Origin: an uncultured Verrucomicrobiota bacterium
Lineage (GTDB): Bacteria > Verrucomicrobiota > Verrucomicrobiia > Limisphaerales > JAEYXS01
Length of the DNA stretch: 32,962 nt
Reading direction: 5' to 3'
Assembly: GCA_964599715.1 (NCBI GenBank)
Contig: CAZRGY010000003.1
Span: 1-32,962 of the forward strand
Shown here: positions 8,946 through 25,473 of the stretch, one piece after another
How the letters are laid out: each line of letters opens with the position of its first letter
How positions within the stretch are numbered: the first letter of the stretch is position 1
The notes under the pieces: model-generated
What the model was told of the DNA's origin: nothing
What the model saw: the letters and a program-made list of their open reading frames with translations, nothing else
The model's database searches: none
Program-made: the position numbers and the translations under genes

Positions 8946-9281
8946 TTAAACTAAGCCTTCGGCGGTATGCGCAGGACGTTTGACAATCTCAAAGATACGA
9001 TGCATACGAGTGAGCTCGATAACCTGCTGGACAGAAGTCTGCGGATTTAACAGTCGTAGCGGGACTTCGCCATGCCGGTTACATGCGGTCTTGTGCACGA
9101 GAAGCAAGGCACCAATCCCATGACTGTCCACGCGGTCAACCTCAGAAAAATCCACTTCGATTGCTTTCAACTCTGGCGACATCGCCGCCTGCACCTTCTC
9201 CCTAAAAAGACCGGCGTTAGCCGCGACAAGGTGTTTGACTTGGTTGACCGTTAGAATGCCATCTCGTTGTAGTATATTCAT
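8946..9281 (-). CDS. Single-domain STAS protein (anti-sigma-factor-antagonist-like, SpoIIAA/RsbV family)
   Basis: The track ORF extends to 9356 but would overlap the upstream gene by 61 nt. The internal ATG at 9281 (MNILQRDGILTV...) gives 111 aa. STAS pattern EVDFSEVDRVDSHGIGALLLV with Ser at the canonical phosphorylation position. Confidence 0.75.
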   Translation of the reverse strand: MNILQRDGILTVNQVKHLVAANAGLFREKVQAAMSPELKAIEVDFSEVDRVDSHGIGALLLVHKTACNRHGEVPLRLLNPQTSVQQVIELTRMHRIFEIVKRPAHTAEGLV

Positions 9282-9295
9282 ATCATCATGCTGTC

Positions 9296-10606: not shown

Positions 10607-10607
10607 T

Positions 10608-11321
10608 TCAGCAAGCTCCCTTTCTAAATAAAACCGCCGGGACAGTCTTGAACAGGATCTTGATGTCCCCCCAGAAACTCTGACTTTCGATATACTCCAC
10701 ATCCAACTTAACCTGCCCTTTGAAATCTATCTCACTTCTTCCTCCTATCTGCCAAAAACAAGTCAATCCGGGTTTGACGACCAGACGTCGCCGATCAGAG
10801 AACGTGTAGAGCATGACCTCTCTGGGCAAAGGCGGGCGCGGCCCAACCAAAGACATATCACCAAGTAAAACGTTGTAGAACTGGGGGAATTCATCGATCG
10901 AGAACATCCGCAACCACTTGCCAATTTTGGTCAACCGTGGATCATTTTTGAGCTTAAAAGTTACTCCCTCTTTATGCTGGTTACTTTCCAGAAGTGCCGT
11001 CAACCGGGCCTCGGCATCCAGGCACATAGAGCGGAATTTAAACAACTTGAACTCACGGCCATCTTTACCCACACGCGTTTGGCAGAAAAACACCGCCCCC
11101 CTGTCCTCCAGCATGATAAGCATTCCAACAATCAAGAAGAGAGGAGCCAAGAGTATCAACGCCATAAAGCTGATTACGACATCCAACAACCGCTTGCTTG
11201 CCTGCGGGCTATTAAGAAAATTCCGCCAGATTATTCGTCTCCACATGGCACAGAGTTTCGTGCGCCATCGGCCCAACGGATTCTGGGTCGCAGTAAATTG
11301 TTCAATCAGCATAGCGTTCAT
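10608..11321 (-). CDS. Polyprenyl-phosphate phosphoglycosyl transferase (bacterial sugar transferase family, initiating enzyme)
   Basis: 237 aa. N-terminal re-entrant/TM helix LLDVVISFMALILLAPLFLIVGMLIML. Canonical motifs GREFKLFKFRSM, SIDEFPQFYNVLLGDMSLVGPRP, KPGLTCFWQIGGRS, LDVEYI. Confidence 0.92.
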   Translation of the reverse strand: MNAMLIEQFTATQNPLGRWRTKLCAMWRRIIWRNFLNSPQASKRLLDVVISFMALILLAPLFLIVGMLIMLEDRGAVFFCQTRVGKDGREFKLFKFRSMCLDAEARLTALLESNQHKEGVTFKLKNDPRLTKIGKWLRMFSIDEFPQFYNVLLGDMSLVGPRPPLPREVMLYTFSDRRRLVVKPGLTCFWQIGGRSEIDFKGQVKLDVEYIESQSFWGDIKILFKTVPAVLFRKGAC

Positions 11322-13450: not shown

Positions 13451-16093
13451 TCACTTGAGTTTTAAACCGGTCACTGAATTGGTGATGCCGTATATCCGTC
13501 TGCCATCCGGTAAAACAGCTTCGACCTCAATCCAGGCAGGCATTGAAGCCCCCGGAGTCAATGAGAGTGCCGATCGAAATGAGATTCCAGTGTCTGGCGT
13601 CTCCCAAACCATCCGTGCTTCCTTAAGGTCCACCTCTGGCGTTACCAGACGGGCTGCCGCTATGCCCGTTACCTTGTCCTTCGATATCTGTATTTGTCCG
13701 GTCGCAGCTTTCCACGACTGTTCTTTTTTGGCTGTCTTGCTCATCAAGAACGCTGCCGCCGCCAACGCACGCGCTTGATTAACAATTACGAATTCCGTTT
13801 GAACATTGAAGCTGTCACCCCAGCGATCGTAGATGGGATATGGCTGATTTCCTGAACCATCCGGTGGAAAAGTCAAAGCTCCCAGCTCCTGCTTGTAGAA
13901 ATCCAGCCAGCCAAAGCCTCCTTGCAGATTGCCGACCGGAATACCGCTAGGCGGCAAAACGCGACGGTCATTCTGGGCGAAATGGTGAACGATCTCTTGC
14001 GGCCGCTTAAATCCAAGCCCCGTCACAAAGCAGACATTCACTGGATTGCATCCCAACTCATAGTTGAAGTTTGCAAGCAAGGCATCTAAGAATTTAGGGC
14101 GTAAGTCTCGATTTACAGGATAGTCCAACTGGCAGCCGACGGCCAGATCAAAGGCCGCACCCGAGGAGAAGTACCACCCCGCGCTGCGAACACGTTTTGT
14201 TTCCACGGGGAAGCTAGTTCCATAAGCGCTCTGCAGCGAACGCCGCAATTGATCTTCCGCACCTGCGGCGACTTCATTCTCGCAGCCGCGAACCATCAGT
14301 TCATCCAATTGTTTCCCTTGAAGCCGGCCACTTTTATGGGCGAATGCGTAACTTCTGGCCGCATTGCCATAGCCATCGTACAAGCGCCACCAGCCCCATT
14401 TGCGGGTCGCAGGGTCATCTGGATGATACCACTCGAGAAACCTCCCGTGATACTTTGCTTCTCCAGTGGCCAAAAACATCTCACATGCCGCCCAAGCCAG
14501 TTCGTCATCATGCATGAAGTCGTTCCCATAGTGGGTGATCTTTTGATAAGCACCATCCTTGCCGTGGAGCGCGATGGCCCGCTCAAGGAAAGCCCAGCCC
14601 GACCGCGCTTTCTGGAGGTATGCCTTGGCTTCTTCTGGGAACTGTTTCTGAAAGAGTGGTGAGGAACTGATCTGGGCCAGCGCCGCGACTGCGGCAGCGG
14701 TGGCGGCAGTTGTTTTCGGCCACACGATCTGGGTGTCGCCAAAGTCGGGCAGCACATTGTGTTCGTAGCGGCGTTCACGCGGGTATACGAGAAAATAGAA
14801 ACCGCCATCGTCATCCTGCATTTTGGCGAGGAATTCCGCTTCCCAGTTCGCCTTCTGCAAGAGATCGCTCAGTTTGTCACCACTCTCCGGCAGGCCCAGA
14901 TTGTCCAACTCACCTGCGCCGGGAAACACATCAACAGCAAAAACAAGATGGTGAATGAAGGCGGCACTGTTGATGGTGTATTTGCTATAATCCCCTGCAT
15001 CATGGTGACCTTTCGAAACATCAATGCTGCCATGTTTAACAAATGGATACAGGCTTGAGGCGAAATCTTTCATCACCGGTGCGGTATGGCGCTGGTTTTT
15101 AGTAGCGTCCGCCGACTCTTCTCGCAGGAACTTCTGTGTATTGGTGAAGAAAGCGGTGGGAATCTCAGCCAACGCCTGATGACAGACCGCATGGGTGAAG
15201 CGTGTAAACGGTAGCGCATTGCTGTCACCACAACGCTGGTGATAAATACCCAGTGCGTAAGTCCGAGCGAGCAACGCCGGATACCCTTCGTTGATGAAGA
15301 ATGGATATGAAACTCCCAATCCATCCACCGCCAGGCGATACTCCCCAGTTTTTGTGAAACTTGAAAAATCCGCTTCGAATACTTGTTGGTAACAAGGAAA
15401 GGGAAAGCCTTGATCCCGGTGAAAGGTCATTTGACTCTCGAAGACTACCGTTTTGCAATCAGCTGATAGCAACTTGAATTTCCCCTCAGGCGGCAAATTA
15501 AGTTCCCCCATACTCCCAAGATAGAATCCCACCATGGCTTTTTTTGACAATTGAGGAGCATAGCCCGCTTGATTCACATGAATCGCTTCACTCAGCCGGA
15601 AAGGGTCGTTTGTGACAAAAAGAAACTGCTCTTTCTTCCATAGGGTCGCGGGGATACTCTTAACCTCAATGACTTGTCCGCTTTCGACAGTTTTCTCCAG
15701 TTGCAAATAGAGATAGTTGCCAATTCGCAGGTCACGCACCTTGAGGGGGGCAAAAAGCACGCGCCGTTTGAAGCCAACTCCGGTGATGCCAGCTGATTGC
15801 CCATCGGCCAGCACCACGAAATCGGTCACCACTGGCAATCGTAGCATCCCCGAAGTATCGACCAAGTCCCAGTCTGGCAACGGCAAATTGAGTTCTTTCG
15901 AGTTGACATAACTGAGCTCCAGCAAATTGGACGAAACTAACTGGAGTGAATAATCTCCTATGACTGGCAACCGGTAATGGTCATCACGAACCCCTTCGGC
16001 AGACAACGACAAGACCAGCCATAGAAGGCTAAAACTGGCAATAAGACTTGAATTCACCGACCTTGCATAACACGCAAGCCAGTGTTCGCCCAT
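13451..16093 (-). CDS. Secreted Ig-like (CelD_N-type) + divergent glycoside hydrolase family 9 protein
   Basis: The track ORF starts at TTG 16171. The first ATG is 16093 (MGEHWLACYARSVNSSLIASFSLLWLVLSLSAEG, signal-peptide-like) and gives 880 aa. GH9 hallmark HHDAGDYSKY at 14990-15007. (alpha/alpha)6-type strings HDDELAWAA, WGWWRLY. Candidate acid Glu in FNVQTEFVIVNQA. Paralogous to aa ~915-1757 of the giant protein. Confidence 0.8.
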   Translation of the reverse strand: MGEHWLACYARSVNSSLIASFSLLWLVLSLSAEGVRDDHYRLPVIGDYSLQLVSSNLLELSYVNSKELNLPLPDWDLVDTSGMLRLPVVTDFVVLADGQSAGITGVGFKRRVLFAPLKVRDLRIGNYLYLQLEKTVESGQVIEVKSIPATLWKKEQFLFVTNDPFRLSEAIHVNQAGYAPQLSKKAMVGFYLGSMGELNLPPEGKFKLLSADCKTVVFESQMTFHRDQGFPFPCYQQVFEADFSSFTKTGEYRLAVDGLGVSYPFFINEGYPALLARTYALGIYHQRCGDSNALPFTRFTHAVCHQALAEIPTAFFTNTQKFLREESADATKNQRHTAPVMKDFASSLYPFVKHGSIDVSKGHHDAGDYSKYTINSAAFIHHLVFAVDVFPGAGELDNLGLPESGDKLSDLLQKANWEAEFLAKMQDDDGGFYFLVYPRERRYEHNVLPDFGDTQIVWPKTTAATAAAVAALAQISSSPLFQKQFPEEAKAYLQKARSGWAFLERAIALHGKDGAYQKITHYGNDFMHDDELAWAACEMFLATGEAKYHGRFLEWYHPDDPATRKWGWWRLYDGYGNAARSYAFAHKSGRLQGKQLDELMVRGCENEVAAGAEDQLRRSLQSAYGTSFPVETKRVRSAGWYFSSGAAFDLAVGCQLDYPVNRDLRPKFLDALLANFNYELGCNPVNVCFVTGLGFKRPQEIVHHFAQNDRRVLPPSGIPVGNLQGGFGWLDFYKQELGALTFPPDGSGNQPYPIYDRWGDSFNVQTEFVIVNQARALAAAAFLMSKTAKKEQSWKAATGQIQISKDKVTGIAAARLVTPEVDLKEARMVWETPDTGISFRSALSLTPGASMPAWIEVEAVLPDGRRIYGITNSVTGLKLK

Positions 16094-16179: not shown

Positions 16180-16227
16180 AAAAAAAAGATCGCGCGGAGT
16201 CGGCTTACGCCAAGGACTTCCGCGCGA
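16180..16227 (-). terminator. Rho-independent terminator downstream of the 2063-aa gene
   Basis: Minus-strand RNA reads UCGCGCGGA-A-GUC [13-nt loop] GAC-UCCGCGCGA followed by UC-U8. This is a 9-bp GC-rich stem plus 3 more bp across a 1-nt bulge (plus-strand arms 16190-16201 and 16215-27), then a run of eight U (A-run 16180-16187 on plus). It lies 25 nt after the TAA at 16252. Confidence 0.8.
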
Positions 16228-16251
16228 CCCAACCACAGGAATGACCTGCGG

Positions 16252-19200
16252 TTAAATGGTCATGTATACTAAGTAGAAGCGCTGCGCAAAATAGCTTGCA
16301 TCATTGTCCAGCCAGCTTGTGGTCGTACCTGTGGCCTGAATATCATCGCTCAATTGGACCCAATCTGCGTCTGTCAGATTACTTTTACCAAGCACACGGT
16401 AGGTCTTTCCAGCAACACTGCTCCAGGCGATGCGCTGTGCGCTTCCCTCGGGTCGAACGGTAGTGCTGGAAACCGCGTTCCCTGTTATTGCGATATCGGC
16501 ATTGCCAGAAGTGCCAACAGTATATGCTGCTTCGACCATCAAGGACATCGTCGCGGTCCTAATGCCGGTAATACCGGCAACCGCAGCCGGGATCAAAGTG
16601 ACTGTGGCCGAGGCACTGCCAACCGGAATCGTCACTGTGGCCGGTAGCAAGCCGTAGTCTGTGCCGTTCACTGCGGTACCACCATAGGTCACGTTCACCG
16701 TAAGAGCCGCAATGGTGCTCCCGGTCCGGGTGAGGGTAAAGACACCCGGATCCGCCCCTGCTTGCGAAGCAGTAGGATCGGTCGCGATTACGCTAACCGA
16801 GGGTAGAGCAATAGCATTGTCGTTGTCATAGAGATAAACGGTGGCGGTGTTCTCTGAGCCGAGGTTGTAGGTCGCATCTGCCTGGATGGTCAGAATGGCC
16901 GTCTCAGTGACTTCCTCCTCGGCATCATCCACGGCATAGATGGTTAGTGTAACCGTCTGGGCACCCGCCGGAATGATGATAGATTCCGGCATATCACCTT
17001 GCGCACGGCGGAAATCACTCCATTTACCGGCGGTTCCACTGAACTTGTAGTTTACGGTCAGTGCCGAACTCGTGTTACCCGTGCGCGTGAAGGTGTAGTA
17101 GGCGGTATCTTCGCCTTCGGTGGCGCCAGGATCAGTCGCGACAACACTAACGGTCGGCAGGCTGTTCGTGGCGAAGAAGCTTATCGCAGCCACGGCCCGG
17201 CGGCCATCGGGCCATTGCGCTTCGGCTTCCACCCATTGGTCACCGTAGCTGACCGGGTGGAAGGTGAAGGTGCTGCCGTATGCAGGTTCTTGATCGCGGG
17301 CTTCCCAGGCTATGCGAGCACCGTTCAGATCAAGGCCATCTACCTGCATGGTAGCGGTGATGAGGCCATTCGTGCCGATTTCCGTGGGCACACCGATGAT
17401 CCGAGCGGTAGTGGACTTCCATGGCTGCGTCTTCGTGGCTGTCAACGTGGCGAGGTAGGCGATGCTGGCGATGCCGCGAGCCTGGGCAACGGCCACGAAC
17501 TCGGTGGTCACGTTGAAGTTATCCGCCCAACGGTCATAGAAGGGGTAGGGAGCCGTGCCGGCATCGTCGGAAGGGAAGGTCAGGGCGGTCAGCTCAGAAC
17601 CGTAGTTCTCAGAGTAGTTGAAACCACCCTGGATATTCCCAATCGGAATACCAGCGGGCGGCATGACGCGGCGGTCGCTCTGCGCATATTGATGAACGAT
17701 CTCGCGCTGGCGTTTCCAGCCCATGCCCGTCAGATAGCTGACGTTGACCGGGTTGTTGCCCGCTTCATAGTTCAGGTTGGCGAGGATGGCATCCAGATAC
17801 TCGGCTCTGGGCGTGATCTGCTGGGCCACCGCGATATCGAAGGCCTGTTCGTTGGAGAAGTACCAGCCTGCGCCGCGAACGCGTTTGGTCGCATCCGGGA
17901 AGCTGCTGCCATAGGCGCCTTGATTCGACCAGAGGAGCGCGTCGTTACCGCCGGCGATGATCTGGGCTTCACATTTGGCGAGATAAGCGGCGTTCAACTG
18001 GCCCGAGGTCAGGCGACCACTACGGGCGGCAAAGGCGTAACTACGGATGGCGTGGCCATAGGAGCCATACAAACGCCACCAGCCCCAGCGGAAGGTCGCG
18101 GCGTTGCTAGGGTCGGGGAACCATTCGGCCAGCTTTTGCTGATATTGGCTTTCACCGGTGGCGGCGAACATCTCGGCTGCGGCCCAGGCCAGTTCGTCAT
18201 CATGGCGATAGTCGTCACCGTAGTGGGTGATTTTCTGGTAGGCGCCGTCTTTGCCGTAGCGGGCAATGGCAGTCGTGAGGAATTGCCAGCCCAGCCTGGC
18301 TTGCTGCAAGTAGGCGGCAGCGGCCACAGGGTACGCCTGCTTGAAGCGCGGTGATGAAGCAGTTTGGGCGAGGGCGGCCACGGCGGCCGCCGTAGAGGCG
18401 GTGGTCTTGGGCCAGACCACCTGGGCATCACCATGGTCCGGTTGCGTGCCGCTCTCGTACTCGCGCTCGCGGGGGTAAACGAGGAAGTAGAAACCCCCAT
18501 CAGTGTCCTGGAGCTTGGCCACATAGTCAGCTTCCCATTTGGCCGCTTGCATCAGATCGCTGATGCCGTCACTGCTTTCGGGGACACCGAGGTTATCCAA
18601 GGCAGCCACACCCGGGATGGAATCCACGGCGAACATCAGGTAATGGATCAGATTGGCGCTGTTGATCGTGTATTTGCTGTAGTCACCGGCATCATGATGA
18701 CCGCCCGAAAGGTCCAAGGCTCCCGTTTTCACGAACGGATAGAGCTGGGCAGCCGGACTGGTCAGCAAAGGAGCTGTTTGCGCCGGATTATCCACGTTCG
18801 CTTTCATGGCGTAGTTGGAGATCGTGGTCCAGGTGAACTGGAACGAGGATGAAGGCATCGGCACACTGACCAGTGCATGATGGCAGTTTTCATGGGTATG
18901 ACGGGTGAAGGGCATGACATTGTTGGTGCCGCAGCGCTGGTGATACAAGCCCAGGGCATAAGCGCGGGTGAAGCCCATCGCGACGCCCTCATCGATCATA
19001 AATGGCAGCGAGGCACCAAGACCGGGAACCATCAATTGATATTCACCGGGAGTGGTAAAGCTGGTGAAGTCCGCTTCCAAGACCTTCTGGTAAGGTGTCG
19101 GGCTGTAGGAATAACCGACATCGGCGCGGACTTTGAGGGTCCCTTGATACACGGAGACACCACTATGGATGTTCACGAGGGAGAAGCCCAAGGAACTGGC

Positions 19201-22200
19201 GATATTCATCTCACCCAAGCTGCCGAGGTAGTAGCCGACCATCGCCTTTTTCGGCAGAGCGGGCACATAGCCTTCTTGATTAACATGGATGGCGGGGCTG
19301 TAGCGCAGGGGTTCGGCCTTGGCGGTGAACTGCATGGTGGAAGACCAAAGCAAACCGCTGGGGTTTTTCACTTCGACCACCTGATTACTGCCCACCGCGG
19401 TGGCAAGTTGCAGGTAGAGTGAGTTGTCGATGCGCAGATCGCGGGGCGACAGGGGCGCATAGAGCGGGCGGCGTTTGAAGCCGACCGATTGGACCGCCAC
19501 TGGCTGGCCGTCCACCGTCACAACGAACTCGCCAAGTGCGGGCGCGGTGAAGGTGCCGGAATTCACAAAATTCCAGATCGTTGGGGTGCCATTCATCGGC
19601 TTCGTGCCGATGGCGTGCAGTTCGAGCAGGGTGGGTGACAGAATATTGAGGCCGCTGTCGCCGACTTTAGGCAGGGTCATGTCCACGTAATTGACCACAC
19701 TTACGGAGGCGGCAGTAAGGTTTGTGACTACCACATTCGTCGAGGGAGGCACTGCAGTCACACTAACGAGGTTGAGCGTAAGTACATTGGTCGTTGCCAC
19801 TGTATAGAACGCATTCGTCGCCAAGGTAAGGGTCATCGTTGCCGGATTTGCCGCCGTCACATTCGCGACTGCCATTATGGTGAGATTGGCTGAGGCTGCC
19901 CCGGCGGGAATTGTGATCGTCACAGGCATATCGCCTTCTGGGCGACGATAATCCACCCATTTCACCGCAGATCCGCCCAAGGTGAAATTGATGACCAAAG
20001 AGTTACTCGTAGCACCCGTTCGGGAGAAGGTGAATACCCCATTGTCATTGGTGCCGATGGTAGCAATTCCATCAACTACCGTAGCTGAAACCTCGGGCAA
20101 TACTGGAATCTCTGGAGCAAAGTCGCCGGAGAATTTACCGGCGTAATCCCAAGTGGCACGCCCATTGTATGTGGTGAAGGCCATGCCATTGAGTTTCTTC
20201 CCTTCCAGCCCCACGGCACTGGCCGGAACTTCGAGGCGGATCCACTGACCAGTCACCGGCAAGGCACCTGCATAGTAACGGCTGGCAGTGCCACTAGCCC
20301 CATAGGTGATCAGATTGGCCCCCCAATAGGCGCGATGTTCCCATGATCCATCAGTCCATTGCAGCATCAGTTCAGACGGCGGGTTCGCAGGATCAAGATA
20401 GACGTAGGTAAAGAGTTTATCACCAGCATTCACACTCAATGTGGTCGTAGCGGAAACGAAATAGTGCTGGTGAAGTCCGGTGGCAATCCCCGATTGATGA
20501 GCGACATTGCCCGCGAAAGGAGCCGGGCCGGTATTCACCCATTTCCAAGCATCCCCGCCATCAGCCGAAAGGGAAGCGCCGCCCGGTGCCGCATCATCAA
20601 CCCAAACGGTTGTGCTGCCGTTTGCAGGAGGGACCGTCGGGGTATCAATGACAGGCACAACCACACCGGTGATGGTCCAGAACTGCCCCTGGCTGGCGTT
20701 ATAGTAAGTGCCGCTCGGGGTGTTCTCCAATTTGACCGCCCGTACCATGTAGGTATTCGTGCCGTTAAGCGGAGCGGTATCGAGGAATGATGCAGTGGTC
20801 ACCAAAGAGCTGTTCAAACGCGTAAATGGTCCGGTCAAAGTGGCCGAACGATAAACGTGATACCCAATGATATTATCGGGCGAGGCCGTCCAAGCCAGAC
20901 TCACCCCTGTGACAAGCGAGGTGCCGCTGACATTGCTGACCGGCGAAACAGGGTGCATGCGCAAGGTAGGATCGCCCATGAGCGCCACATGGATTCCACC
21001 CGCGCCGTTGTTCATTTGGTTCTTGTATAGGCCTGTATTGTTCTGCGTGAGACGAGTACTGTAACCGATAGTCTCGCCCAAACCCATGTGCTGAAAAAAC
21101 CAGTGAGGACGCCCCGACCAGCAACTGGTCAAACCGAAATCTTTCGTCGCCAGAACGGAACGCAGGAGGTTGTCTTCCGAATCCCAATCCCCCAGCCAGC
21201 TACCAAAGAGCATGGTAAACACAGACCGGATATTAGCGTCGACCAGGTCAGTGGAATACATCTCATTGTACAATCCTGAGTCGCCCAAGCCACTTATGCT
21301 GGAATATGTGCCCGGACCGCATCCATAAGCCCAAAGATAGTCATTGGCAGACAGCGTTGGCAGCCAGACACCTTTAAGATCGTTGAAGGCCAAATTGAGG
21401 TTTGCCGTATTGGCTGCACTGAAAAACGGGGCGAAGTTCCGGTAACCGTTGGCGGCAAAGGCTTCACCATTACTCGTGCCGAAATAATCACCCACAATCC
21501 CCCGGCGTTGGGCTGCGGTCAGGTTGTGTCGAAAATTATGGTCTTTGTTCAGGTATTGGCGCAGCAGTTCCAGTTCGCTGGGAAAAGTTGCCGGACCGCC
21601 CCAAATCTTGCGACCGGGCATATTCGCCAGGTCCACACGCCCCACTTGCAATTTCACCACAGCAGGAGGTGTGGATTGATCGAACTTACCGTCACCCGGA
21701 ACGTTACGATTACGAGCGTCGCTAGCACCTGAATTATTGACCGTGTTGTCGGTCCATACTCCATCCATGTCACCGTAAAAAACGTCGGCTGGCCACGCAC
21801 CAAAGTGCTCAGGGCTATGACCGTCCGGAACAACATTGCCAGAGTAAGCTACGGGCACATGCCCGAAGAGAAATACCGCCTTAGTGTTGGCCGGATCATT
21901 GGTGTAATCCTCCCTGATGAGATTTTTAACGCTGTTGGGAGTATCATCACGAGCGACGTCGTGGCGAATCACTGTCCAGCCATCGCCAAGCAGATCCTGC
22001 TGTAACCGGGTTAACTCCACCGTCAATTGATTGGCATACGTGTTATCCACAATCAGGATCACTTTGCCGCGACTTTCGACCAGCGGCACATTCACACCCG
22101 CGTAGATGTAGCCATAGCCAGTGTAGGACGAAGCGGACTTCACTACCTGATATTCATAAGCCTTACCGGCGAGAATGGTGGCATCCGTAAAATTAGTAGA

Positions 22201-22443
22201 TGCCCCAGTCAAGGTTATGCCATTGCCCCAAGCAGTATCCTCGGCGGCTTTCCGATAGACGGTGTAACTCGATGGTGTCCCAAGGGAATCCTGGGGCCAG
22301 TTGAGGATGACCTTGGGAGGTGAAGCTTGCACGTTTGCACTGACCTGCACGGAGAACTCCCAGACAGGTTCAACGGCTACGGAGGTCAATGACCACAGCG
22401 CAGCGATAGCTAGCGTAGCGGCGGCCTTGAATTGCTTTTTCAT
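16252..22443 (-). CDS. Giant secreted multidomain protein: FN3 / gingipain(C25)-like / FN3 / uncharacterised module / Calx-beta / Ig+GH9 / beta module / 2x Calx-beta / C-terminal tail
   Basis: Uninterrupted 2063-codon ORF. Signal peptide MKKQFKAAATLAIAALWSLTSVA. Approximate domains in aa: FN3 38-115; C25-like 125-495 (KVILIVDN..LQQDLLGDGWTV..VKNLIREDY..AVFLFGHVPV..VFYGDMDG..LQVGRV); FN3 498-590; W-rich module 610-772 (LMLQWTDGSWEHRAYWG); Calx-beta 784-890; Ig+GH9 915-1668 (HHDAGD at 18682-18699); beta module 1670-1757; Calx-beta 1763-1875 and 1880-1988; tail 1993-2063 ending RFYLVYMTI. Confidence 0.9.
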   Translation of the reverse strand: MKKQFKAAATLAIAALWSLTSVAVEPVWEFSVQVSANVQASPPKVILNWPQDSLGTPSSYTVYRKAAEDTAWGNGITLTGASTNFTDATILAGKAYEYQVVKSASSYTGYGYIYAGVNVPLVESRGKVILIVDNTYANQLTVELTRLQQDLLGDGWTVIRHDVARDDTPNSVKNLIREDYTNDPANTKAVFLFGHVPVAYSGNVVPDGHSPEHFGAWPADVFYGDMDGVWTDNTVNNSGASDARNRNVPGDGKFDQSTPPAVVKLQVGRVDLANMPGRKIWGGPATFPSELELLRQYLNKDHNFRHNLTAAQRRGIVGDYFGTSNGEAFAANGYRNFAPFFSAANTANLNLAFNDLKGVWLPTLSANDYLWAYGCGPGTYSSISGLGDSGLYNEMYSTDLVDANIRSVFTMLFGSWLGDWDSEDNLLRSVLATKDFGLTSCWSGRPHWFFQHMGLGETIGYSTRLTQNNTGLYKNQMNNGAGGIHVALMGDPTLRMHPVSPVSNVSGTSLVTGVSLAWTASPDNIIGYHVYRSATLTGPFTRLNSSLVTTASFLDTAPLNGTNTYMVRAVKLENTPSGTYYNASQGQFWTITGVVVPVIDTPTVPPANGSTTVWVDDAAPGGASLSADGGDAWKWVNTGPAPFAGNVAHQSGIATGLHQHYFVSATTTLSVNAGDKLFTYVYLDPANPPSELMLQWTDGSWEHRAYWGANLITYGASGTASRYYAGALPVTGQWIRLEVPASAVGLEGKKLNGMAFTTYNGRATWDYAGKFSGDFAPEIPVLPEVSATVVDGIATIGTNDNGVFTFSRTGATSNSLVINFTLGGSAVKWVDYRRPEGDMPVTITIPAGAASANLTIMAVANVTAANPATMTLTLATNAFYTVATTNVLTLNLVSVTAVPPSTNVVVTNLTAASVSVVNYVDMTLPKVGDSGLNILSPTLLELHAIGTKPMNGTPTIWNFVNSGTFTAPALGEFVVTVDGQPVAVQSVGFKRRPLYAPLSPRDLRIDNSLYLQLATAVGSNQVVEVKNPSGLLWSSTMQFTAKAEPLRYSPAIHVNQEGYVPALPKKAMVGYYLGSLGEMNIASSLGFSLVNIHSGVSVYQGTLKVRADVGYSYSPTPYQKVLEADFTSFTTPGEYQLMVPGLGASLPFMIDEGVAMGFTRAYALGLYHQRCGTNNVMPFTRHTHENCHHALVSVPMPSSSFQFTWTTISNYAMKANVDNPAQTAPLLTSPAAQLYPFVKTGALDLSGGHHDAGDYSKYTINSANLIHYLMFAVDSIPGVAALDNLGVPESSDGISDLMQAAKWEADYVAKLQDTDGGFYFLVYPREREYESGTQPDHGDAQVVWPKTTASTAAAVAALAQTASSPRFKQAYPVAAAAYLQQARLGWQFLTTAIARYGKDGAYQKITHYGDDYRHDDELAWAAAEMFAATGESQYQQKLAEWFPDPSNAATFRWGWWRLYGSYGHAIRSYAFAARSGRLTSGQLNAAYLAKCEAQIIAGGNDALLWSNQGAYGSSFPDATKRVRGAGWYFSNEQAFDIAVAQQITPRAEYLDAILANLNYEAGNNPVNVSYLTGMGWKRQREIVHQYAQSDRRVMPPAGIPIGNIQGGFNYSENYGSELTALTFPSDDAGTAPYPFYDRWADNFNVTTEFVAVAQARGIASIAYLATLTATKTQPWKSTTARIIGVPTEIGTNGLITATMQVDGLDLNGARIAWEARDQEPAYGSTFTFHPVSYGDQWVEAEAQWPDGRRAVAAISFFATNSLPTVSVVATDPGATEGEDTAYYTFTRTGNTSSALTVNYKFSGTAGKWSDFRRAQGDMPESIIIPAGAQTVTLTIYAVDDAEEEVTETAILTIQADATYNLGSENTATVYLYDNDNAIALPSVSVIATDPTASQAGADPGVFTLTRTGSTIAALTVNVTYGGTAVNGTDYGLLPATVTIPVGSASATVTLIPAAVAGITGIRTATMSLMVEAAYTVGTSGNADIAITGNAVSSTTVRPEGSAQRIAWSSVAGKTYRVLGKSNLTDADWVQLSDDIQATGTTTSWLDNDASYFAQRFYLVYMTI
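16480..17157 (-). repeat. Two tandem Calx-beta-like coding repeats (aa 1763-1988 of the giant protein)
   Basis: Repeated pattern V(S/A)V(V/I)ATDP..(S/T)E......(Y/F)T(F/L)TRTG.T..ALTVN......GTA...(D/S)(Y/F)........(I/V)IP(A/V)G......T(L/I). The first copy ends with the Calx-type ATVYLYDND. Confidence 0.65.
19774..20094 (-). repeat. Third (N-proximal) Calx-beta-like coding repeat (aa 784-890)
   Basis: VSATVVDGIATIGTNDNGVFTFSRTGATSNSLVINFTLGGSAVKWVDYRRPEGDMPVTITIPAGAASANLTIMAV matches the same pattern. The string KW(V/S)D(Y/F)RR..GDMP is shared with the repeat at aa 1763-1875. Confidence 0.6.
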
Positions 22444-22820
22444 GCCACCAGCCTGCGCGACTCATCATTCCTCCGTAATCAGCGGAACACTGATTGCAGT
22501 GTAGTGTTTCGGGATATTCTCCTGTCAGTGTCTCCCCTACAAAAGCCGGCTTATCATGCTGTCCACGCAACAGAAACGCTGCAACCAAGTCGCGACAAGC
22601 TCTGCTTGTTTCATGGTTCCATTGAGAAAAGCTTATTGAAAACGGGATTTATGCCAAAAAAACTGACGGAGAATGGCGCAAGAAAACTAAAAAAGGAACC
22701 GGGGGAAGTGATACCTAGTCTGAGACAGAAGAGGACAGCCTAACAGAGCACAGCAGACTTTACCCAAGAAAGCTGTGCCCGCTGATTTAATTCAGGTCAG
22801 ATACCAAGAAATAAATCAAA
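22444..22820 (-). promoter_or_regulatory. 377-bp non-coding leader/promoter region upstream of the giant gene
   Basis: Largest intergenic gap in the locus, between the Wza-like stop (22821) and ATG 22443. Contains a 7-bp hairpin GCACAGC/GCTGTGC (22748-22778) just after the Wza-like stop, and two overlapping 6-bp hairpins at 22477-22502. Confidence 0.4.
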
Positions 22821-23930
22821 TCAGAAGGTAACTGGCACGTTGACGCCTATGACAGTGTTGCCATCGGAGACCGCCCGGGCTCCTTCGTTGGCTCCGACAG
22901 TACGAACAAACGTATTCACAATCAGATCCAGATAACGAGTGAGGGTACGATATGGCGTATACGGCACGTACACGATATCTTGCGATTCCAAGGCGACATC
23001 AGGAGCCCGGCCTTTGACAATATCCCAGTAATTGACGATGGCGATCTTTGGCTCCGTCAAAGAACCACGCACAATCGCGACATGGGAAAGGTAAGCGTTT
23101 TTGATGGAACCTCCGGCTTTCGCGACGGCTGAAACCAGTGTTACCTGCTCCCCATAACTGATAGCACCAGGCAATGCTACGGCTCCAATCACATGGATTC
23201 CACGCGTAGAAGCAGCGGGTAGAAAAATGAAGTCATCCGGCTGCAGATAGAGATTTTGTGTCAAATCGCCCTCGCGTAAAAGCTTCTGGAAGTTGACGGG
23301 CAGCATCTTGCCCTGACGAATGATAAAGCTGCGTTGCAAATCGGCAGCTTCCTGTCGGCTGCTGGGAGTACCGGCGCCAGCTCCCGTAGCAAGTCCTGCC
23401 ACAGGGCTGGGTAACGCAGGTCCACCCGCACGAGAAATCGCTTCCAGCAATGTCACCGGTGTGGCCAAGGAGTAAATGCCCGGTCCATTGACCCGGCCAA
23501 GCATCCAAAAGCGTTTGCTCTCCACGCTCCGCAAGGTGAGAGAGATTTGAGGTGGTTCACGAAAGTATTCTACCAATTGGGATTCAAGCCGTGCCTTCGT
23601 TTCAGTAAGAGTCAAGCCCCACACATCCAATCCTGGCAGGAGGTAGTAATAGATTTTCCCATCTGGCCCCACGAGCGCTGTGCTCTTAGTTGCCATGTCG
23701 CCAGGTATCTGGATATCGAGGCGGTCACCCGGTCCCAGAGTAAAGGTGTTCGTCGGCATCAAAAGGCATTGGGGATCCAAAGTGTTGGTGATGGTGACGA
23801 GGTCAATGTTGGTGCTCGCTACGGAATTGGTACCACCGGTTTGACGGACGTCAAACTGCGGCCCGGTGCTGCGACATCCGAGAAGGATAAGGGCGCACAG
23901 AACAGCAGCGAGCAATGCTTTGAAATTCAT
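22821..23930 (-). CDS. Outer-membrane polysaccharide export lipoprotein (OPX, Wza-like: Poly_export + SLBB)
   Basis: ATG at 23930 (MNFKALLAAVLCALILLGCRS, lipobox LLGC) gives 369 aa. The track extension to 24044 overlaps the upstream gene. Poly_export motif TLGPGDRLDIQIPGD..., SLBB-like V.V.GAV..PG... repeats. Ends in ...VNVPVTF. Confidence 0.85.
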   Translation of the reverse strand: MNFKALLAAVLCALILLGCRSTGPQFDVRQTGGTNSVASTNIDLVTITNTLDPQCLLMPTNTFTLGPGDRLDIQIPGDMATKSTALVGPDGKIYYYLLPGLDVWGLTLTETKARLESQLVEYFREPPQISLTLRSVESKRFWMLGRVNGPGIYSLATPVTLLEAISRAGGPALPSPVAGLATGAGAGTPSSRQEAADLQRSFIIRQGKMLPVNFQKLLREGDLTQNLYLQPDDFIFLPAASTRGIHVIGAVALPGAISYGEQVTLVSAVAKAGGSIKNAYLSHVAIVRGSLTEPKIAIVNYWDIVKGRAPDVALESQDIVYVPYTPYRTLTRYLDLIVNTFVRTVGANEGARAVSDGNTVIGVNVPVTF

Positions 23931-23941
23931 AAACCTTACGA

Positions 23942-25462
23942 TTATTTGATGATTGATCCGATGTTGCCACCGGTCCAGGTGATGACGGCAGCTTGGACAA
24001 ACGCCGAGGCGAGCACATCCAGCAATTCCTCCGCTTTGACCCATGGGCGGCTGTTCACATAAATGATGTCGCGCGGCTGCAATTTGAAGTCTGGCGTATT
24101 GGCGGAAAGAATTCCCGTGACATCAATGACGAAGGTTTCCGGGTGGTTGAGCGATCCTCTTACCACGAGGACCTTGCCCTTCCACGCCTTCTCGGTGAAA
24201 CCACCACGCTGCGCGATAGCCCCGATCGTGGAAGCGCCCTTCGAATAGCTGACGGCACCGGGATATTTGACTTCACCCAGCACATAAAACTCGCGGATAT
24301 CGGTGGCTGGAAAATAAAGATAATCGTCTGGTTCCAAAGGAATGTTCTGAGAGAGATCACCGGCCAGAAAAAGCTTCTCAAAATCAACAGGCACACGCTG
24401 CCCACGCCGGGCGATAAAGCTATGAGACAGGTCGGCCAGTTCAACCACGTTCCTTTCCGACATACCGGTCTCGAAGCCTCGAGCCCGGGCGATCGCCTCA
24501 ATGACTGTGATCGGCCGGTCCAAAGTGAATACACCTTTCTGCGCTACACGCCCCAGCATGTAGTATTTTTTGCTCTGCAAAGCCACCGGGGAGATCATTG
24601 TACGGGGAGAACGTCGGTATTTACCAAGCTCGTCGTCGAATTTCTGACGCAACTCATCCACCGTCAATCCGGTGGCCATCAAGCCTTGCGCCTCCAAATA
24701 GCTGATCCGGCCGTCAGGACCTATGAACACTTCCTTAACAGTCAGCTCTGGTTCTCCATAAAGAGAAAAGTTGAGCACATCCCCTGCCCCTAATGTCAGG
24801 TGTTCCTGCCAAGGCGCACGCTTCACATTGCTCAGTGCAGAAAAAGATCCTTCCATAACGGAGGGTGGCGCTACTGCTGCTTGAGTCCCGATTTGCGTTT
24901 CTTCCAGCTCGCTAGCGGGCGCAATCCCAGCCGATTGCACTTCGATTGGGGACTCAGCCCCAACCAGTTCAGACGACACAGCATCCCGACGCTGATTGCC
25001 CCAGGAGATAGGTCTGGTAAAGGTAGCCGTGCCTAAGAGGTATTTGCTGATCGGATGGAAGAATTGCACTCTGATCCGGTCTGTAAACATAGGTTCAGGC
25101 TCGCGTAAATAGGTAACCTTGATACTTACAGAACCATCCCCTGTCGCAACCTGAACGGTCTCAATCTGAAAATATGATGACGACTTTGCATCCCCTTTCT
25201 TATCGACCAATGTCACCAACTGGATAGGCGGCTTGCCAAGCCCGCTGTAGTGATAGTCTAAAGTGATCACTTTCGCAGAGGATGTGTTGGGCGTGACTTT
25301 CAAGTTTGAGATTTTGCAGCCTGAAATGGTGAATTCTTGCTGTTCGTTAGTAGTAAGAATCTCACCAAACACCATCAAACCAGAGCAACAAGCCGACAGG
25401 ATGCCCAATACAAGCATTGATATCTGCCTGGCTGAACGGATGAAAATAGATGCGTTTATCAT
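23942..25462 (-). CDS. Second OPX (Wza-like) lipoprotein with about 200-aa N-terminal extension
   Basis: The track start 25477 is TTG. ATG 25462 gives MINASIFIRSARQISMLVLGILSACCSG (lipobox LSAC). Poly_export motif LTLGAGDVLNFSLYGEPEL, then SLBB-like FYVLGEVKYPGAVSY. aa ~30-200 has no motif I recognise. Confidence 0.8.
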   Translation of the reverse strand: MINASIFIRSARQISMLVLGILSACCSGLMVFGEILTTNEQQEFTISGCKISNLKVTPNTSSAKVITLDYHYSGLGKPPIQLVTLVDKKGDAKSSSYFQIETVQVATGDGSVSIKVTYLREPEPMFTDRIRVQFFHPISKYLLGTATFTRPISWGNQRRDAVSSELVGAESPIEVQSAGIAPASELEETQIGTQAAVAPPSVMEGSFSALSNVKRAPWQEHLTLGAGDVLNFSLYGEPELTVKEVFIGPDGRISYLEAQGLMATGLTVDELRQKFDDELGKYRRSPRTMISPVALQSKKYYMLGRVAQKGVFTLDRPITVIEAIARARGFETGMSERNVVELADLSHSFIARRGQRVPVDFEKLFLAGDLSQNIPLEPDDYLYFPATDIREFYVLGEVKYPGAVSYSKGASTIGAIAQRGGFTEKAWKGKVLVVRGSLNHPETFVIDVTGILSANTPDFKLQPRDIIYVNSRPWVKAEELLDVLASAFVQAAVITWTGGNIGSIIK

Positions 25463-25473
25463 GGAAATAGTTC

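What the first reader, a model, noticed from the sequence alone, without database searches (positions are those of the whole stretch)
16252..22443. 2063-aa secreted mosaic protein joining a gingipain-like module to a GH9 module, set as its own transcription unit inside the export gene train
One uninterrupted ORF encodes: signal peptide, FN3, a ~370-aa module with the strand/loop pattern of C25 gingipain-type domains, FN3, a ~160-aa W-rich module I cannot name (LMLQWTDGSWEHRAYWG...WIRLEVP), Calx-beta, Ig-like + GH9, a beta module, two Calx-beta, and a ~70-aa tail (RIAWSSVAGKTYRV...RFYLVYMTI).
A protease-fold module and a glycoside hydrolase in one surface or secreted protein is unusual.
The gene sits between the OPX genes and a stand-alone GH9 paralogue. 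It has a 377-bp upstream gap and a strong intrinsic terminator.
Possible roles are EPS trimming or remodelling, matrix anchoring (Calx-beta domains typically bind Ca2+), or attack on foreign polymers. None of these can be read from the sequence.
Basis: partly seen in the sequence, partly recalled or inferred. Interest (0 to 1): 0.75.

Follow-up and report, generated by a model that had tools for sequence, protein, structure and literature searches.

The report
Giant secreted GH9 glycanase, gingipain-fold head
The 2063-residue gene is real and encodes a secreted enzyme that cuts beta-1,4-linked sugar chains, carrying at its front a domain with the shape of a gingipain protease but without that protease's catalytic residues; it is one member of an uncharacterised family of over 1000 proteins in Verrucomicrobiota, often encoded next to slime-polysaccharide export genes.

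Summary

- **Domains confirmed:** signal peptide, FN3, gingipain (C25)-fold module, FN3, one W-rich module (now a CBM-like beta-jelly-roll), three Calx-beta-like modules, CelD_N plus GH9 with intact catalytic motifs, and a strictly C-terminal ~65-aa tail.
a ~135-aa module before CelD_N.
- **Transcription signals:** the 377-bp upstream gap and the hairpin plus U8 terminator are real.

The architecture is not a one-off. More than 1000 homologues exist. In 116-119 of the top 120, all from Verrucomicrobiota, the core FN3-C25-FN3-W-lnk-Ig-GH9-beta is conserved.

The FN3-C25fold-FN3 head is also a widespread N-terminal cassette in its own right. It gives 3332 clusters across at least five phyla, with many different C-terminal partners.

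The canonical His-Cys dyad of clan CD peptidases is absent. An invariant Ser sits at the likely nucleophile position, and no His lies where one is needed. A gingipain-type protease reading is therefore unlikely.

Best reading: a secreted GH9 beta-1,4-glycanase, paired with a shorter paralogue, that processes the cluster's own exopolysaccharide. The role of the head domain is unknown. The family is uncharacterised and of moderate interest.

The parts
16252..22443 (-). Whole gene, 2063 aa
   Evidence: ORF list and translation. More than 1000 homologues of 2000-2700 aa.
22375..22443 (-). Sec-type signal peptide (aa 1-23, MKKQFK + hydrophobic core + SVA|VEP)
   Evidence: Read from the translation by inspection. 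No predictor was run.
22090..22371 (-). FN3 domain a (aa 25-118)
   Evidence: All-beta in the model. FN3 structures match at prob 1.0. It is related to FN3b by local jackhmmer.
20950..22083 (-). Gingipain (C25)-fold module, aa 121-498. It lacks the canonical dyad: C375 sits at the inferred His position and the invariant S415 at the inferred Cys position.
   Evidence: Pfam Peptidase_C25 30.6 bits on the isolated segment. Foldseek to RgpB 1cvr E 3.6e-11. Residue conservation. His and Cys inventory.
20656..20943 (-). FN3 domain b (aa 501-596), in the place of the Ig-like domain that follows the gingipain catalytic domain
20125..20610 (-). W-rich module (aa 612-773): a CBM-like beta-jelly-roll. 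One copy here, 1-5 copies in homologues.
   Evidence: Model pLDDT 95. Foldseek hits to GH85 accessory domains, CBM61/11/22/8 and Kgp K1-K3 adhesin domains, E 1e-6 to 1e-3, TM about 0.5. Copy numbers.
19768..20100 (-). Calx-beta-like module 1 (aa 782-892); acidic Ca-binding motifs lost
   Evidence: Repeat family. Profile hit to NCX1 CBD1/2 at E 8e-7. Alignment.
19324..19728 (-). Unnamed conserved module 'lnk' (aa 906-1040), also present in the paralogue
   Evidence: Found in 120 of 120 homologues. Aligned to the paralogue. No family assigned.
19015..19302 (-). CelD_N Ig-like domain (aa 1048-1143)
   Evidence: Pfam E 1.5e-14.
17494..18948 (-). GH9 catalytic domain (aa 1166-1650). Carries D1251/D1254 in HHDAGD, E1648 in TTEFV, and a CelD-like Cys/His cluster (C1171, C1187, H1188).
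   Evidence: Pfam E 1.8e-37. PDB relatives 3x17, CelD, BoGH9A and CbhA. Motif positions. Near-invariance in homologues.
17173..17493 (-). Post-GH9 beta module (aa 1651-1757), shared with the paralogue
   Evidence: Found in 120 of 120 homologues. Aligned to the paralogue.
16819..17160 (-). Calx-beta-like module 2 (aa 1762-1875). It is the only copy that keeps the acidic motifs (DDAEEE 1839-1844, DNDN 1873-1876).
16477..16806 (-). Calx-beta-like module 3 (aa 1880-1989); acidic motifs lost
16255..16458 (-). C-terminal tail domain (aa 1996-2063; W..Y.V...W...D...RFY.V)
   Evidence: Present in 59 of 120 homologues. Always 2-5 residues from the C-terminus, also on unrelated ORFs. Only a weak FN3-like match, E 0.3.
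16180..16229 (-). Intrinsic terminator: 14-pair GC-rich hairpin followed by U8
   Evidence: Sequence. Folded together with a neighbouring hairpin at -44.3 kcal/mol, z -5.75, 0 of 200 shuffles as good.
22444..22820 (-). 377-bp intergenic region upstream. A hairpin follows the Wza stop at 22743-22782.
   Evidence: No Rfam family. The overall fold is not unusual (z -0.37). No sigma-70-like site was found.
13451..16093 (-). Partner gene: 880-aa GH9 paralogue (lnk, CelD_N, GH9, beta) with an N-terminal hydrophobic anchor or signal
   Evidence: Pfam. 53% identity to aa 924-1749 of the giant. The pairing recurs in L001-L004 and L041.
22821..27534 (-). Upstream Wzz (PCP) gene and two Wza (OPX) genes on the same strand
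   Evidence: Pfam. The same order, Wzz-Wza-Wza-giant, occurs in L001, L009, L010, L016 and L041.

Best explanation
**What it is.** The gene encodes a Sec-exported multidomain enzyme. Its working part is a CelD-type GH9 endo-beta-1,4-glycanase (Ig-like CelD_N plus an (alpha/alpha)6 catalytic domain). The general-base pair D1251/D1254 and the acid E1648 are all present.

**What it acts on.** Together with the shorter, probably membrane-anchored GH9 paralogue next door, it most likely cuts the beta-1,4-linked backbone of the polysaccharide made by the surrounding Wzx/Wzy-type cluster. That cluster encodes Bac_transf priming, GT2 and GT4 transferases, Wzy, Wzz and two Wza. The enzyme would set chain length or release polymer at or beyond the outer membrane. 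BcsZ, KORRIGAN, PslG and ExoK do this for their own polymers.

**Accessory modules.** The CBM-like W module would hold the enzyme on the glycan. The FN3 and Calx-beta modules would act as spacers, with one possibly Ca-binding copy. The C-terminal tail may retain the protein at the cell surface.

**The N-terminal head.** The gingipain-fold domain is not a gingipain-type cysteine protease. It is a separately conserved N-terminal cassette with an invariant Ser, His and Asp set, and its activity is unknown.

**Shown versus inferred.** Shown: the domain identities, the conservation, the synteny and the lack of a dyad. Inferred: the substrate, the location and the role of the head.
For: **GH9 module.**
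- GH9 and CelD_N score above the Pfam thresholds.
- The closest solved relatives are endoglucanases: 3x17 (E 5e-32), CelD and BoGH9A.
- HHDAGD and TTEFV are present and nearly invariant across 88 homologues.

**Position in the cluster.**
- The gene lies on the same strand between Wzz-Wza-Wza and the run paralogue-GT4-PRK-Bac_transf.
- Wzz-Wza-Wza sits directly upstream in Pedosphaera parvula (L001), L009, L010, an Opitutus MAG (L016) and an Opitutaceae chromosome (L041). These span two classes of the phylum.
- The nearest relative (L002) keeps paralogue-GT4-PRK-Bac_transf downstream.
- A GH9 paralogue lies within 3-9 kb in every locus that has 10 kb of downstream sequence.
- No sugar transporter or other catabolic GH is adjacent.

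**Precedent.** GH9 enzymes are known to cut decorated beta-1,4-glucan exopolysaccharide backbones, for example the xanthanases PspXan9 and MiXen (PMC10881899).

**Accessory and head modules.**
- The W module has a CBM-like fold.
- The head lacks the dyad.
- The head and the GH9 part are separate adjacent genes in L041 and L026. They are therefore separable but linked.
Against: **Synteny is partial.**
- Only 5 of about 19 related loci with at least 3 kb of upstream sequence show Wza or Wzz next to the gene.
- In L003 and L004 the GH9 pair sits among stress genes, not EPS genes.

**The substrate is not established.**
- Nothing in the sequence identifies it.
- The EPS structure is unknown.
- The closest characterised GH9 enzymes degrade plant glucans.
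- CBM-bearing GH9 enzymes are typical foraging cellulases.

**Transcription.** The gene's own terminator and long 5' gap show it is not strictly co-transcribed with the export genes.

**The head domain.** Its strict conservation (S415 in 143 of 143) argues that it does something specific. This explanation leaves that open.
Confidence: 0.45

Rival explanations
1. It is a foraging enzyme. A secreted cellulase or xyloglucanase releases oligosaccharides from plant or algal beta-1,4-glucans for growth. Its position near EPS genes is incidental.
For: The best solved relatives are cellulases and a xyloglucanase. The CBM-like module and the multidomain build are typical of such enzymes. Most related loci lack adjacent OPX genes.
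Against: No transporter, beta-glucosidase or other catabolic GH is adjacent in any locus examined. Wzz-Wza-Wza-giant synteny is kept across two classes of the phylum. The recurring neighbours are a GH9 paralogue, a GerE-type response regulator and partner-switching or stress genes.
Confidence: 0.25
2. It is a bifunctional protease-glycanase. The gingipain-like module is an active peptidase working beside the GH9 module, on matrix proteins or on foreign cell walls.
For: The C25 fold is confirmed. In the window protein a Cys (C375) sits in a GCG motif at a strand end. A weak profile-profile alignment puts it opposite Cys244 of RgpB (E 0.042, probability 1.2%). The module is highly conserved.
Against: There is no His between 307 and 446, so no His precedes C375 on a neighbouring strand. 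C375 is replaced by A, G or S in 46 of 143 family representatives and in 9 of 88 close homologues. Matching of secondary-structure elements and of spacing places C375 at the His position and the invariant S415 at the Cys position. There is no sequence-level match to any gingipain in the PDB.
Confidence: 0.07
3. The head is a new serine-dependent hydrolase or transpeptidase on a caspase/gingipain scaffold. It would process the attached cargo or tether it covalently to the envelope or the EPS. Alternatively it would remove acyl or peptide substituents from the polymer so that the GH9 domain can cut.
For: S415 is invariant in 143 of 143 representatives and 88 of 88 homologues, at the strand end where clan CD enzymes carry the nucleophile. 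H209, H302, D207, D220, D251, D255, D271 and D491 are also invariant or nearly so. The cassette is nearly always N-terminal and carries many different C-terminal cargos. PorU, a C25-fold sortase, is a precedent for cargo attachment (established knowledge, not tested here).
Against: No coordinates were available, so no Ser-His geometry was checked. The invariant Asp and His residues lie mostly in low-confidence loops and could simply bind Ca2+. No biochemical precedent for a Ser nucleophile in this fold was found.
Confidence: 0.15
4. It is mainly a structural surface or matrix protein, an adhesin or scaffold, in which the enzyme-like modules serve as binding domains.
For: It is large and carries FN3, Calx-beta and CBM-like repeats whose numbers vary between homologues. 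The head lacks the protease dyad.
Against: The GH9 catalytic residues and the surrounding motifs are nearly invariant across the family, as expected of an active enzyme.
Confidence: 0.08

Closest known systems
Gingipains RgpB and Kgp (MEROPS family C25, clan CD) of Porphyromonas gingivalis
   Same: The fold of the ~380-aa module is the same (Foldseek to 1cvr and 4ief, E 1e-9 to 1e-11). There is a partial Pfam C25 match. The C-terminal GDP(S/T)L strand is shared. The catalytic-fold module is followed by an Ig/FN3-like domain and then a beta-jelly-roll that resembles the Kgp K1-K3 cleaved-adhesin domains.
   Different: There is no His-Cys dyad. There is no detectable sequence similarity over the active-site half. 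No pro-domain or T9SS C-terminal domain was detected by Pfam. The host phylum is Verrucomicrobiota. The module is preceded by an FN3 domain and fused to a GH9 enzyme.
CelD / CbhA-type GH9 enzymes with an N-terminal Ig-like domain (Clostridium thermocellum CelD 1clc, CbhA 1ut9; metagenomic 3x17; BoGH9A 6dht)
   Same: The CelD_N plus GH9 pair, the DAGD motif, a C-terminal catalytic Glu motif and a Cys/His cluster like the CelD zinc site are all present.
   Different: The GH9 domain is embedded in a 2063-aa protein, with extra conserved modules before it (lnk) and after it (beta). There is no dockerin and no classical CBM family. The genomic setting is EPS export and synthesis, not a cellulosome or a PUL.
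Glycanases encoded inside polysaccharide synthesis loci: BcsZ (GH8, bacterial cellulose), KORRIGAN (plant GH9), PslG, ExoK/ExsH (succinoglycan)
   Same: A hydrolase gene for the polymer's backbone linkage sits among the synthesis and export genes. The product is exported. A membrane-anchored form (the paralogue) accompanies a free form.
   Different: Family and size differ. The protein has a protease-fold head and many accessory modules. The link to the cluster's polymer rests on synteny only. Comparison with these systems rests on established knowledge, not on a test here.
GH9 endo-xanthanases PspXan9 (6FHN) and MiXen
   Same: These are GH9 enzymes that cut the beta-1,4-glucan backbone of a branched bacterial exopolysaccharide. 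They are large multidomain secreted proteins with glycan-binding modules (PMC10881899).
   Different: They are catabolic enzymes of other organisms that act on a foreign EPS. They were not among the sequence relatives found in the PDB search.

Membership tests
Glycoside hydrolase family 9 | Sequence match to the GH9 catalytic domain above the curated threshold | tested here: met
   PF00759, 130.1 bits against a cut-off of 27.7, aa 1166-1614. PDB GH9 relatives reach E 5e-32.
Glycoside hydrolase family 9 | Two catalytic-base Asp residues in a DAGD motif | tested here: met
   HHD1251AGD1254. It aligns to the DAGD of 3x17 and CelD and is nearly invariant in homologues.
Glycoside hydrolase family 9 | Catalytic-acid Glu in the C-terminal NEVA-like motif | tested here: inconclusive
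   E1648 in NVTTEFVAV is nearly invariant in homologues. However, the Pfam and PDB alignments stop before it, so the equivalence rests on motif resemblance.
Glycoside hydrolase family 9 | Hydrolysis of beta-1,4-glycosidic bonds | not testable with these tools
   Needs an enzyme assay.
Peptidase family C25 (gingipains) | Caspase/gingipain alpha-beta fold of the catalytic domain | tested here: met
   The Foldseek top hits are RgpB 1cvr and 4ief, E 3.6e-11, prob 1.0, TM (target) 0.57, on a model with pLDDT 83.
Peptidase family C25 (gingipains) | Sequence match to PF01364 above the curated threshold | tested here: inconclusive
   30.6 bits against a cut-off of 23, but only when the segment is scanned alone, and covering profile positions 44-119 of 374. 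It is not reported for the whole protein. Only 3 of 120 homologues carry it in the precomputed tables.
Peptidase family C25 (gingipains) | Catalytic His followed by catalytic Cys at the ends of adjacent strands (RgpB His211/Cys244) | tested here: not met
   No His occurs at 307-446 and the only Cys residues are 375 and 441. C375 is conserved in 79 of 88 and 97 of 143 sequences, and C441 in 18 of 143. Element-by-element topology and spacing place C375 at the His site and the invariant S415 at the Cys site. Residue equivalence is inferred, because no 3D superposition could be output.
Peptidase family C25 (gingipains) | T9SS C-terminal sorting domain and N-terminal pro-domain | tested here: not met
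   No such Pfam domain appears in the protein or its segments. The N-terminus is a signal peptide plus an FN3 domain.
Calx-beta domain | Sequence relationship to the Calx-beta (NCX CBD) fold family | tested here: met
   A profile of the repeat (15 sequences, including the three window copies) hits NCX1 CBD1/CBD2 at E 8.3e-7 to 4e-5. Homologues carry PF03160. The window copies alone give no Pfam hit.
Calx-beta domain | Acidic Ca2+-binding residues | tested here: inconclusive
   Only copy 2 keeps DDAEEE and a terminal DNDN. Copies 1 and 3 have lost them. Binding itself cannot be tested here.
Fibronectin type III | FN3 beta-sandwich fold | tested here: met
   Many FN3 structures match at prob 1.0, TM (target) 0.6-0.8. 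Pfam fn3 is not detected on the window copies but is detected at the same positions in family representatives.
Carbohydrate-binding module (for the W module) | Membership of a defined CBM family by sequence, and glycan binding | tested here: inconclusive
   Only fold-level likeness to CBM61, CBM11, CBM22 and CBM8 is seen, with TM about 0.5. There is no Pfam or PDB sequence match. Binding cannot be tested here.
Self-EPS processing glycanase (BcsZ / PslG / ExoK-like role) | Gene embedded in the polysaccharide synthesis and export locus, with conserved synteny | tested here: inconclusive
   It is embedded in the window and in L001, L002, L009, L010, L016 and L041. Adjacent EPS genes are absent in most other loci.
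Self-EPS processing glycanase (BcsZ / PslG / ExoK-like role) | Cleaves the polymer made by its own locus | not testable with these tools
   Needs the native EPS and an enzyme assay.

The most novel reading that the evidence does not exclude
The FN3-C25fold-FN3 head defines a large uncharacterised enzyme family: 3332 clusters at 50% identity in at least five phyla. In this family the clan CD cysteine-protease scaffold would have been converted to a serine-dependent catalyst, using the invariant S415 with invariant His and Asp partners. Placed at the N-terminus of many different secreted cargos, it would process or covalently anchor them. In this protein it would tether or activate a GH9 glycanase at the exopolysaccharide export site.
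Probability: 0.15. Interest if true: 0.8.

Novelty: new variant of a known kind. Interest (0 to 1): 0.5.

Why it matters
Verrucomicrobiota are abundant in soil and water, but their envelope and matrix biology is almost unstudied. This protein family is among their largest conserved secreted proteins. It pairs a probably active GH9 glycanase with polysaccharide export genes in several lineages. It is therefore a concrete handle on how these bacteria shape their exopolysaccharide, or on which beta-1,4-glycan they attack.

The head domain matters separately. It is a very widespread, strongly conserved gingipain-fold cassette without the protease dyad. Automatic annotation as 'peptidase C25' would mislead. 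Working out what it does could reveal either a new catalytic use of the caspase/gingipain fold or a common anchoring device for secreted proteins.

Tried and rejected
- **Direct sequence links from the head to gingipains failed.**
  - phmmer and a 10-sequence profile against all PDB chains found nothing.
  - hmmsearch and hhalign against RgpB 208-352 aligned only the GDP(S/T)L strand.
  - A BLOSUM62 pairwise alignment was no better than shuffles (z 0.09).
  - Local hhalign of a 143-sequence head profile against a 20-sequence canonical C25 profile gave E 0.042 and probability 1.2%. Its register (C375 opposite Cys244) conflicts with the topology-based one.
  - I therefore rest the 'no dyad' verdict on facts that hold in both registers: no His at 307-446, and C375 not conserved.
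- **Oversized inputs.** The first structure job was too large. Both were redone with fewer sequences.
- **Pfam.** It gave no fn3 or Calx-beta hit on any window segment. These calls were rescued only by structure search and by a profile.
- **Tail.** The profile found only a non-significant FN3-like match (E 0.3).
- **Scans.** The consensus terminator scan missed the real hairpin. No sigma-70-like promoter was found in the 377-bp gap.
- **5' region.** It has no Rfam family. Its fold is unremarkable.
- **Neighbours of stand-alone cassettes.** Clustering the neighbours of stand-alone cassette genes in other phyla gave no conserved partner beyond response regulators.
- **Names and literature.** Cluster look-ups gave no informative names. 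Six literature searches found nothing on this architecture.
- **Rejected idea.** I considered that the protein is a one-off recent mosaic. The core architecture is conserved across the phylum.

Full report
**Observation**

The window holds one uninterrupted ORF at 16252..22443 on the minus strand, 2063 aa, starting at an ATG. The N-terminus (MKKQFK, a hydrophobic stretch, SVA|VEP) reads as a Sec signal peptide by inspection.

The upstream intergenic gap is exactly 377 bp (22444-22820). Downstream, a 14-pair GC-rich hairpin followed by eight U (16180-16229) starts about 20 nt after the stop codon. Folded with a neighbouring hairpin it reaches -44.3 kcal/mol, z -5.75, and none of 200 shuffles folds as well. 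The consensus terminator scan missed it.

The next gene probably starts at the ATG at 16093, not at the TTG the ORF finder reports. The signs of a separate transcription unit are therefore present. No promoter was identified, and no RNA family or unusual fold lies in the 5' gap.

**Domain calls**

- **GH9 and CelD_N.** Pfam on the whole protein returns only Glyco_hydro_9 (aa 1166-1614, E 1.8e-37) and CelD_N (aa 1048-1143, E 1.5e-14).
- **C25-like module.** Scanned in pieces, aa 115-505 matches Peptidase_C25 at 30.6 bits (cut-off 23), over profile positions 44-119 only. No piece matches fn3 or Calx-beta.
- **FN3, C25 fold, FN3.** An AlphaFold2 model of aa 24-605, built with 35 homologues, has pLDDT 83 and pTM 0.88. 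Its best PDB matches are RgpB gingipain (1cvr and 4ief, E 3.6e-11 to 2.5e-9, prob 1.0). FN3 domains fill most of the rest of the list.
- **W-rich module (aa 612-773).** It models at pLDDT 95 as a beta-jelly-roll. It resembles the accessory domains of GH85 enzymes, CBM61, CBM11, CBM22 and CBM8, and the K1-K3 cleaved-adhesin domains of Kgp, at E 1e-6 to 1e-3 and TM about 0.5. It has no sequence match in the PDB.
- **Calx-beta modules.** The three are one repeat family. Their profile hits the Calx-beta domains of NCX1 at E 8.3e-7. Only the second copy keeps acidic motifs of the Ca-binding type (DDAEEE, DNDN).
A conserved ~135-aa module (aa 906-1040) precedes CelD_N. Like the post-GH9 beta module, it is present in all 120 homologues and in the paralogue.
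- **Tail (aa 1996-2063).** It matches only weakly to an FN3-like protein (E 0.3).

**GH9 module**

The closest solved relatives are endoglucanases with an N-terminal Ig-like domain: 3x17 at E 5e-32, CelD, J30 CCH, BoGH9A and CbhA.

The base pair D1251/D1254 in HHDAGD aligns with theirs. E1648 in NVTTEFVAV fits the C-terminal acid motif, but it lies beyond the reported alignments. Both motifs are nearly invariant in 88 homologues. I see no sign of inactivation.

The neighbouring 880-aa protein (13451-16093) is 53% identical to aa 924-1749. It has the same lnk, CelD_N, GH9, beta core behind a hydrophobic N-terminus.

**Not a one-off**

A search of 5.8 billion proteins gave 1045 hits at E <= 1e-5 among the candidates scored. 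The best 120 are all 1958-2736 aa and 51-73% identical. Where named, they come from Verrucomicrobiota: Pedosphaera parvula, Opitutaceae, Lacunisphaera and Limisphaerales. Sources call them 'glycoside hydrolase family 9 protein' or 'hypothetical protein'.

A module-by-module BLAST map shows two zones:
- FN3a, C25, FN3b, W, lnk, Ig, GH9 and beta are each present in 116-120 of 120.
- The C-terminal part varies: Calx modules in 67-85 of 120, and the tail in 48 of 120.

The W module occurs 1-5 times per protein, and the window protein has a single copy.

**The head is a cassette of its own**

A scan of one genome per species with the C25-module profile found at least 584 genomes that encode a relative. 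They belong to Verrucomicrobiota, Bacteroidota, Acidobacteriota (Thermoanaerobaculia), Planctomycetota and Omnitrophota, at 48-74% identity.

All 80 loci kept carry FN3a, C25 and FN3b together. GH9 is fused only in Verrucomicrobiota. Elsewhere the cassette heads proteins of about 600-1300 aa.

Against 1.84 billion cluster representatives, the profile finds 3332 proteins at E <= 1e-3 and 1992 at E <= 1e-30. The module almost always starts near residue 110-150. The C-terminal partners include Calx-beta, fn3, DUF1349, PKD, He_PIG, Ig and RCC1 repeats. Sources give these proteins no informative name.

In an Opitutaceae chromosome (L041) the cassette is a separate 615-aa gene. It lies after Wza and is followed by a 249-aa ORF, a 1439-aa W-W-lnk-Ig-GH9-beta-W gene and a GH9 paralogue. 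In L026 a GH9 gene directly precedes a 624-aa cassette gene. The two parts are therefore separable yet stay linked.

**Is the head a protease?**

Clan CD peptidases carry a His and then a Cys at the ends of adjacent strands. The RgpB segment 208-352 was checked against the PDB. It has H211 in YTGHG, C244 in DVACVNG, W284 in NQSW, and a terminal GDPSL.

The window's head has no His between 307 and 446, and its only Cys residues are 375 and 441. Conservation is as follows:

| Residue | 88 close homologues | 143 family representatives |
|---|---|---|
| C375 | 79 | 97 |
| C441 | not counted | 18 |
| S415 | 88 | 143 |
| H209 | 88 | 142 |
| D220, D271, D491 | 88 (D220, D271); D491 not counted | 143 |
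| H302 | 86 | 140 |

I then matched the model's secondary-structure elements to canonical C25 sequences collected with the RgpB segment.
- **Elements.** Both show the same series after the conserved VGR motif: helix, strand, helix, strand, helix, strand, then helix, strand, helix, strand, helices and the GDP strand.
- **Assignment.** This puts YLWAYGC375G at the His strand and VFTMLFGS415 at the Cys strand.
- **Spacings.** Here they are 106, 40 and 76 residues. In a canonical sequence they are 93, 33 and 97. The totals are 222 and 223.

My knowledge of which RgpB strands carry which elements is from memory of the published structure. No 3D superposition could be exported. This mapping is therefore an inference.

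A weak profile-profile alignment (E 0.042, probability 1.2%) prefers another register, with C375 opposite Cys244. In that register the His position holds a variable Thr.

Either way the canonical dyad is absent. A gingipain-type cysteine protease is unlikely. The invariant Ser, His and Asp set argues that the head has a specific function, which remains unknown.

**Genomic setting**

Genes from 7714 to 29986 lie on the minus strand. In order of decreasing coordinate they are:
1. ABC exporter
2. GerE-type response regulator
3. Wzz
4. Wza
5. Wza
6. the giant gene
7. the GH9 paralogue
8. GT4
9. a PRK-family kinase
10. Bac_transf
11. a hexapeptide transferase
12. STAS
13. a phosphodiesterase

The plus strand at 2307-7663 adds GT2, a methyltransferase, Wzy, GT4 and DUF2334.

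The order Wzz-Wza-Wza-giant recurs in Pedosphaera parvula (L001), L009, L010, an Opitutus MAG (L016) and the Opitutaceae chromosome (L041). The closest relative (L002) has the giant gene, then GerE regulator, kinase, SpoIIE, anti-sigma-like kinase, STAS, STAS, paralogue, GT4, PRK and Bac_transf.

Only 5 of about 19 related loci with at least 3 kb of upstream sequence show OPX genes by tblastn. In L003 and L004 the GH9 pair sits among BON, DUF883 and holin-like stress genes.

The constant companions are the paralogue and a GerE-type regulator. No transporter or catabolic GH is adjacent anywhere.

**Best explanation and rivals**

I favour, at 0.45, a secreted GH9 beta-1,4-glycanase that trims or releases the locus's own exopolysaccharide together with the anchored paralogue. 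In this reading the W module binds glycan, FN3 and Calx-beta act as spacers, and the tail may act as a retention signal. GH9 enzymes do cut branched bacterial EPS backbones, as the xanthanases PspXan9 and MiXen show (PMC10881899).

The rivals are:
- a foraging cellulase or xyloglucanase (0.25);
- a head that is a new serine-type catalyst or cargo-anchoring device (0.15; compatible with the main reading of the GH9 part);
- a mainly structural adhesin (0.08);
- a true cysteine protease plus glycanase (0.07).

**Novelty and score**

I found no paper on this architecture. The window's protein is an ordinary member of a large family that no one has characterised. As a system it is a new variant of the 'glycanase inside a polysaccharide locus' theme. 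It carries an unexplained and very widespread gingipain-fold head. Interest 0.5.

Noticed in passing
window 16255-16458 (-); also L032 14134-16851 (-), L056 12984-15878 (-), L080 13129-18927 (+): The ~65-aa tail domain (W..Y.V...W...D...RFY.V) always ends 2-5 residues before the stop codon. It also closes unrelated ORFs of 906, 965 and 1933 aa, and stand-alone cassette proteins. It looks like a C-terminal sorting or retention domain of Verrucomicrobiota.
   Followed up: partly
window 17173-19728 versus 19729-22443 (-): Third-position GC jumps inside the gene. It is about 0.57 over the first 900 codons and about 0.72 over lnk-Ig-GH9-beta. Every other gene in the window has GC3 of 0.46-0.59. The nearest relative comes from a 58% GC genome (GC3 0.75-0.83) and is 86% identical in the GH9 part but 73% in the head. 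This suggests the GH9 core was exchanged with a higher-GC relative.
   Followed up: partly
L041 9641-20254; L026 25-4412: These are natural split versions. In an Opitutaceae chromosome the FN3-C25fold-FN3 cassette is its own 615-aa gene, next to a 1439-aa GH9 gene and a GH9 paralogue. In L026 a GH9 gene is followed by a 624-aa cassette gene. I did not check whether the L041 split is an assembly frameshift.
   Followed up: partly
L001 22130-25106; L002 17838-21921; window 8946-9356, 27627-28256, 30246-31412: The GH9 pair travels with a GerE-type response regulator. In two genomes it also travels with an RsbU_N-HisKA_3 kinase, a SpoIIE phosphatase, an anti-sigma-type kinase and STAS proteins. 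In others it sits with BON, DUF883 and holin-like stress genes. In the window a STAS domain is fused to the WecG glycosyltransferase. This hints at partner-switching or stress control of the polysaccharide genes.
   Followed up: no
window 22821-24044 and 23942-25477 (-): There are two tandem Wza-type OPX genes. Their ORF calls overlap by 103 bp, so the true start of the downstream gene probably lies further in. The doublet is conserved in L001, L009, L010, L016 and L041.
   Followed up: no
window 9296-10702 (-): This 468-aa ORF combines hexapeptide-repeat transferase motifs with a weak, partial Bac_transf match (below threshold). It overlaps the start of the full Bac_transf gene at 10608-11321.
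   Followed up: no
window 22743-22782 (-): A GC-rich hairpin lies just after the stop codon of the downstream Wza gene. It could end the export-gene transcript before the giant gene, but its U tract is poor.
   Followed up: no
L002 and L005 (assembly GCA_943367715, contigs CALRJY020000004 and ...006): This MAG is titled 'Chitinophaga pinensis', yet it carries the closest relatives of this Verrucomicrobiota-type gene. One copy is fused to GH9. The second is a 1070-aa cassette protein with the tail. The taxonomic label is probably wrong.
   Followed up: no
P0121 (3383 aa): One family representative matches the head profile in six separate stretches. Tandem repeats of the cassette therefore exist.
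   Followed up: no
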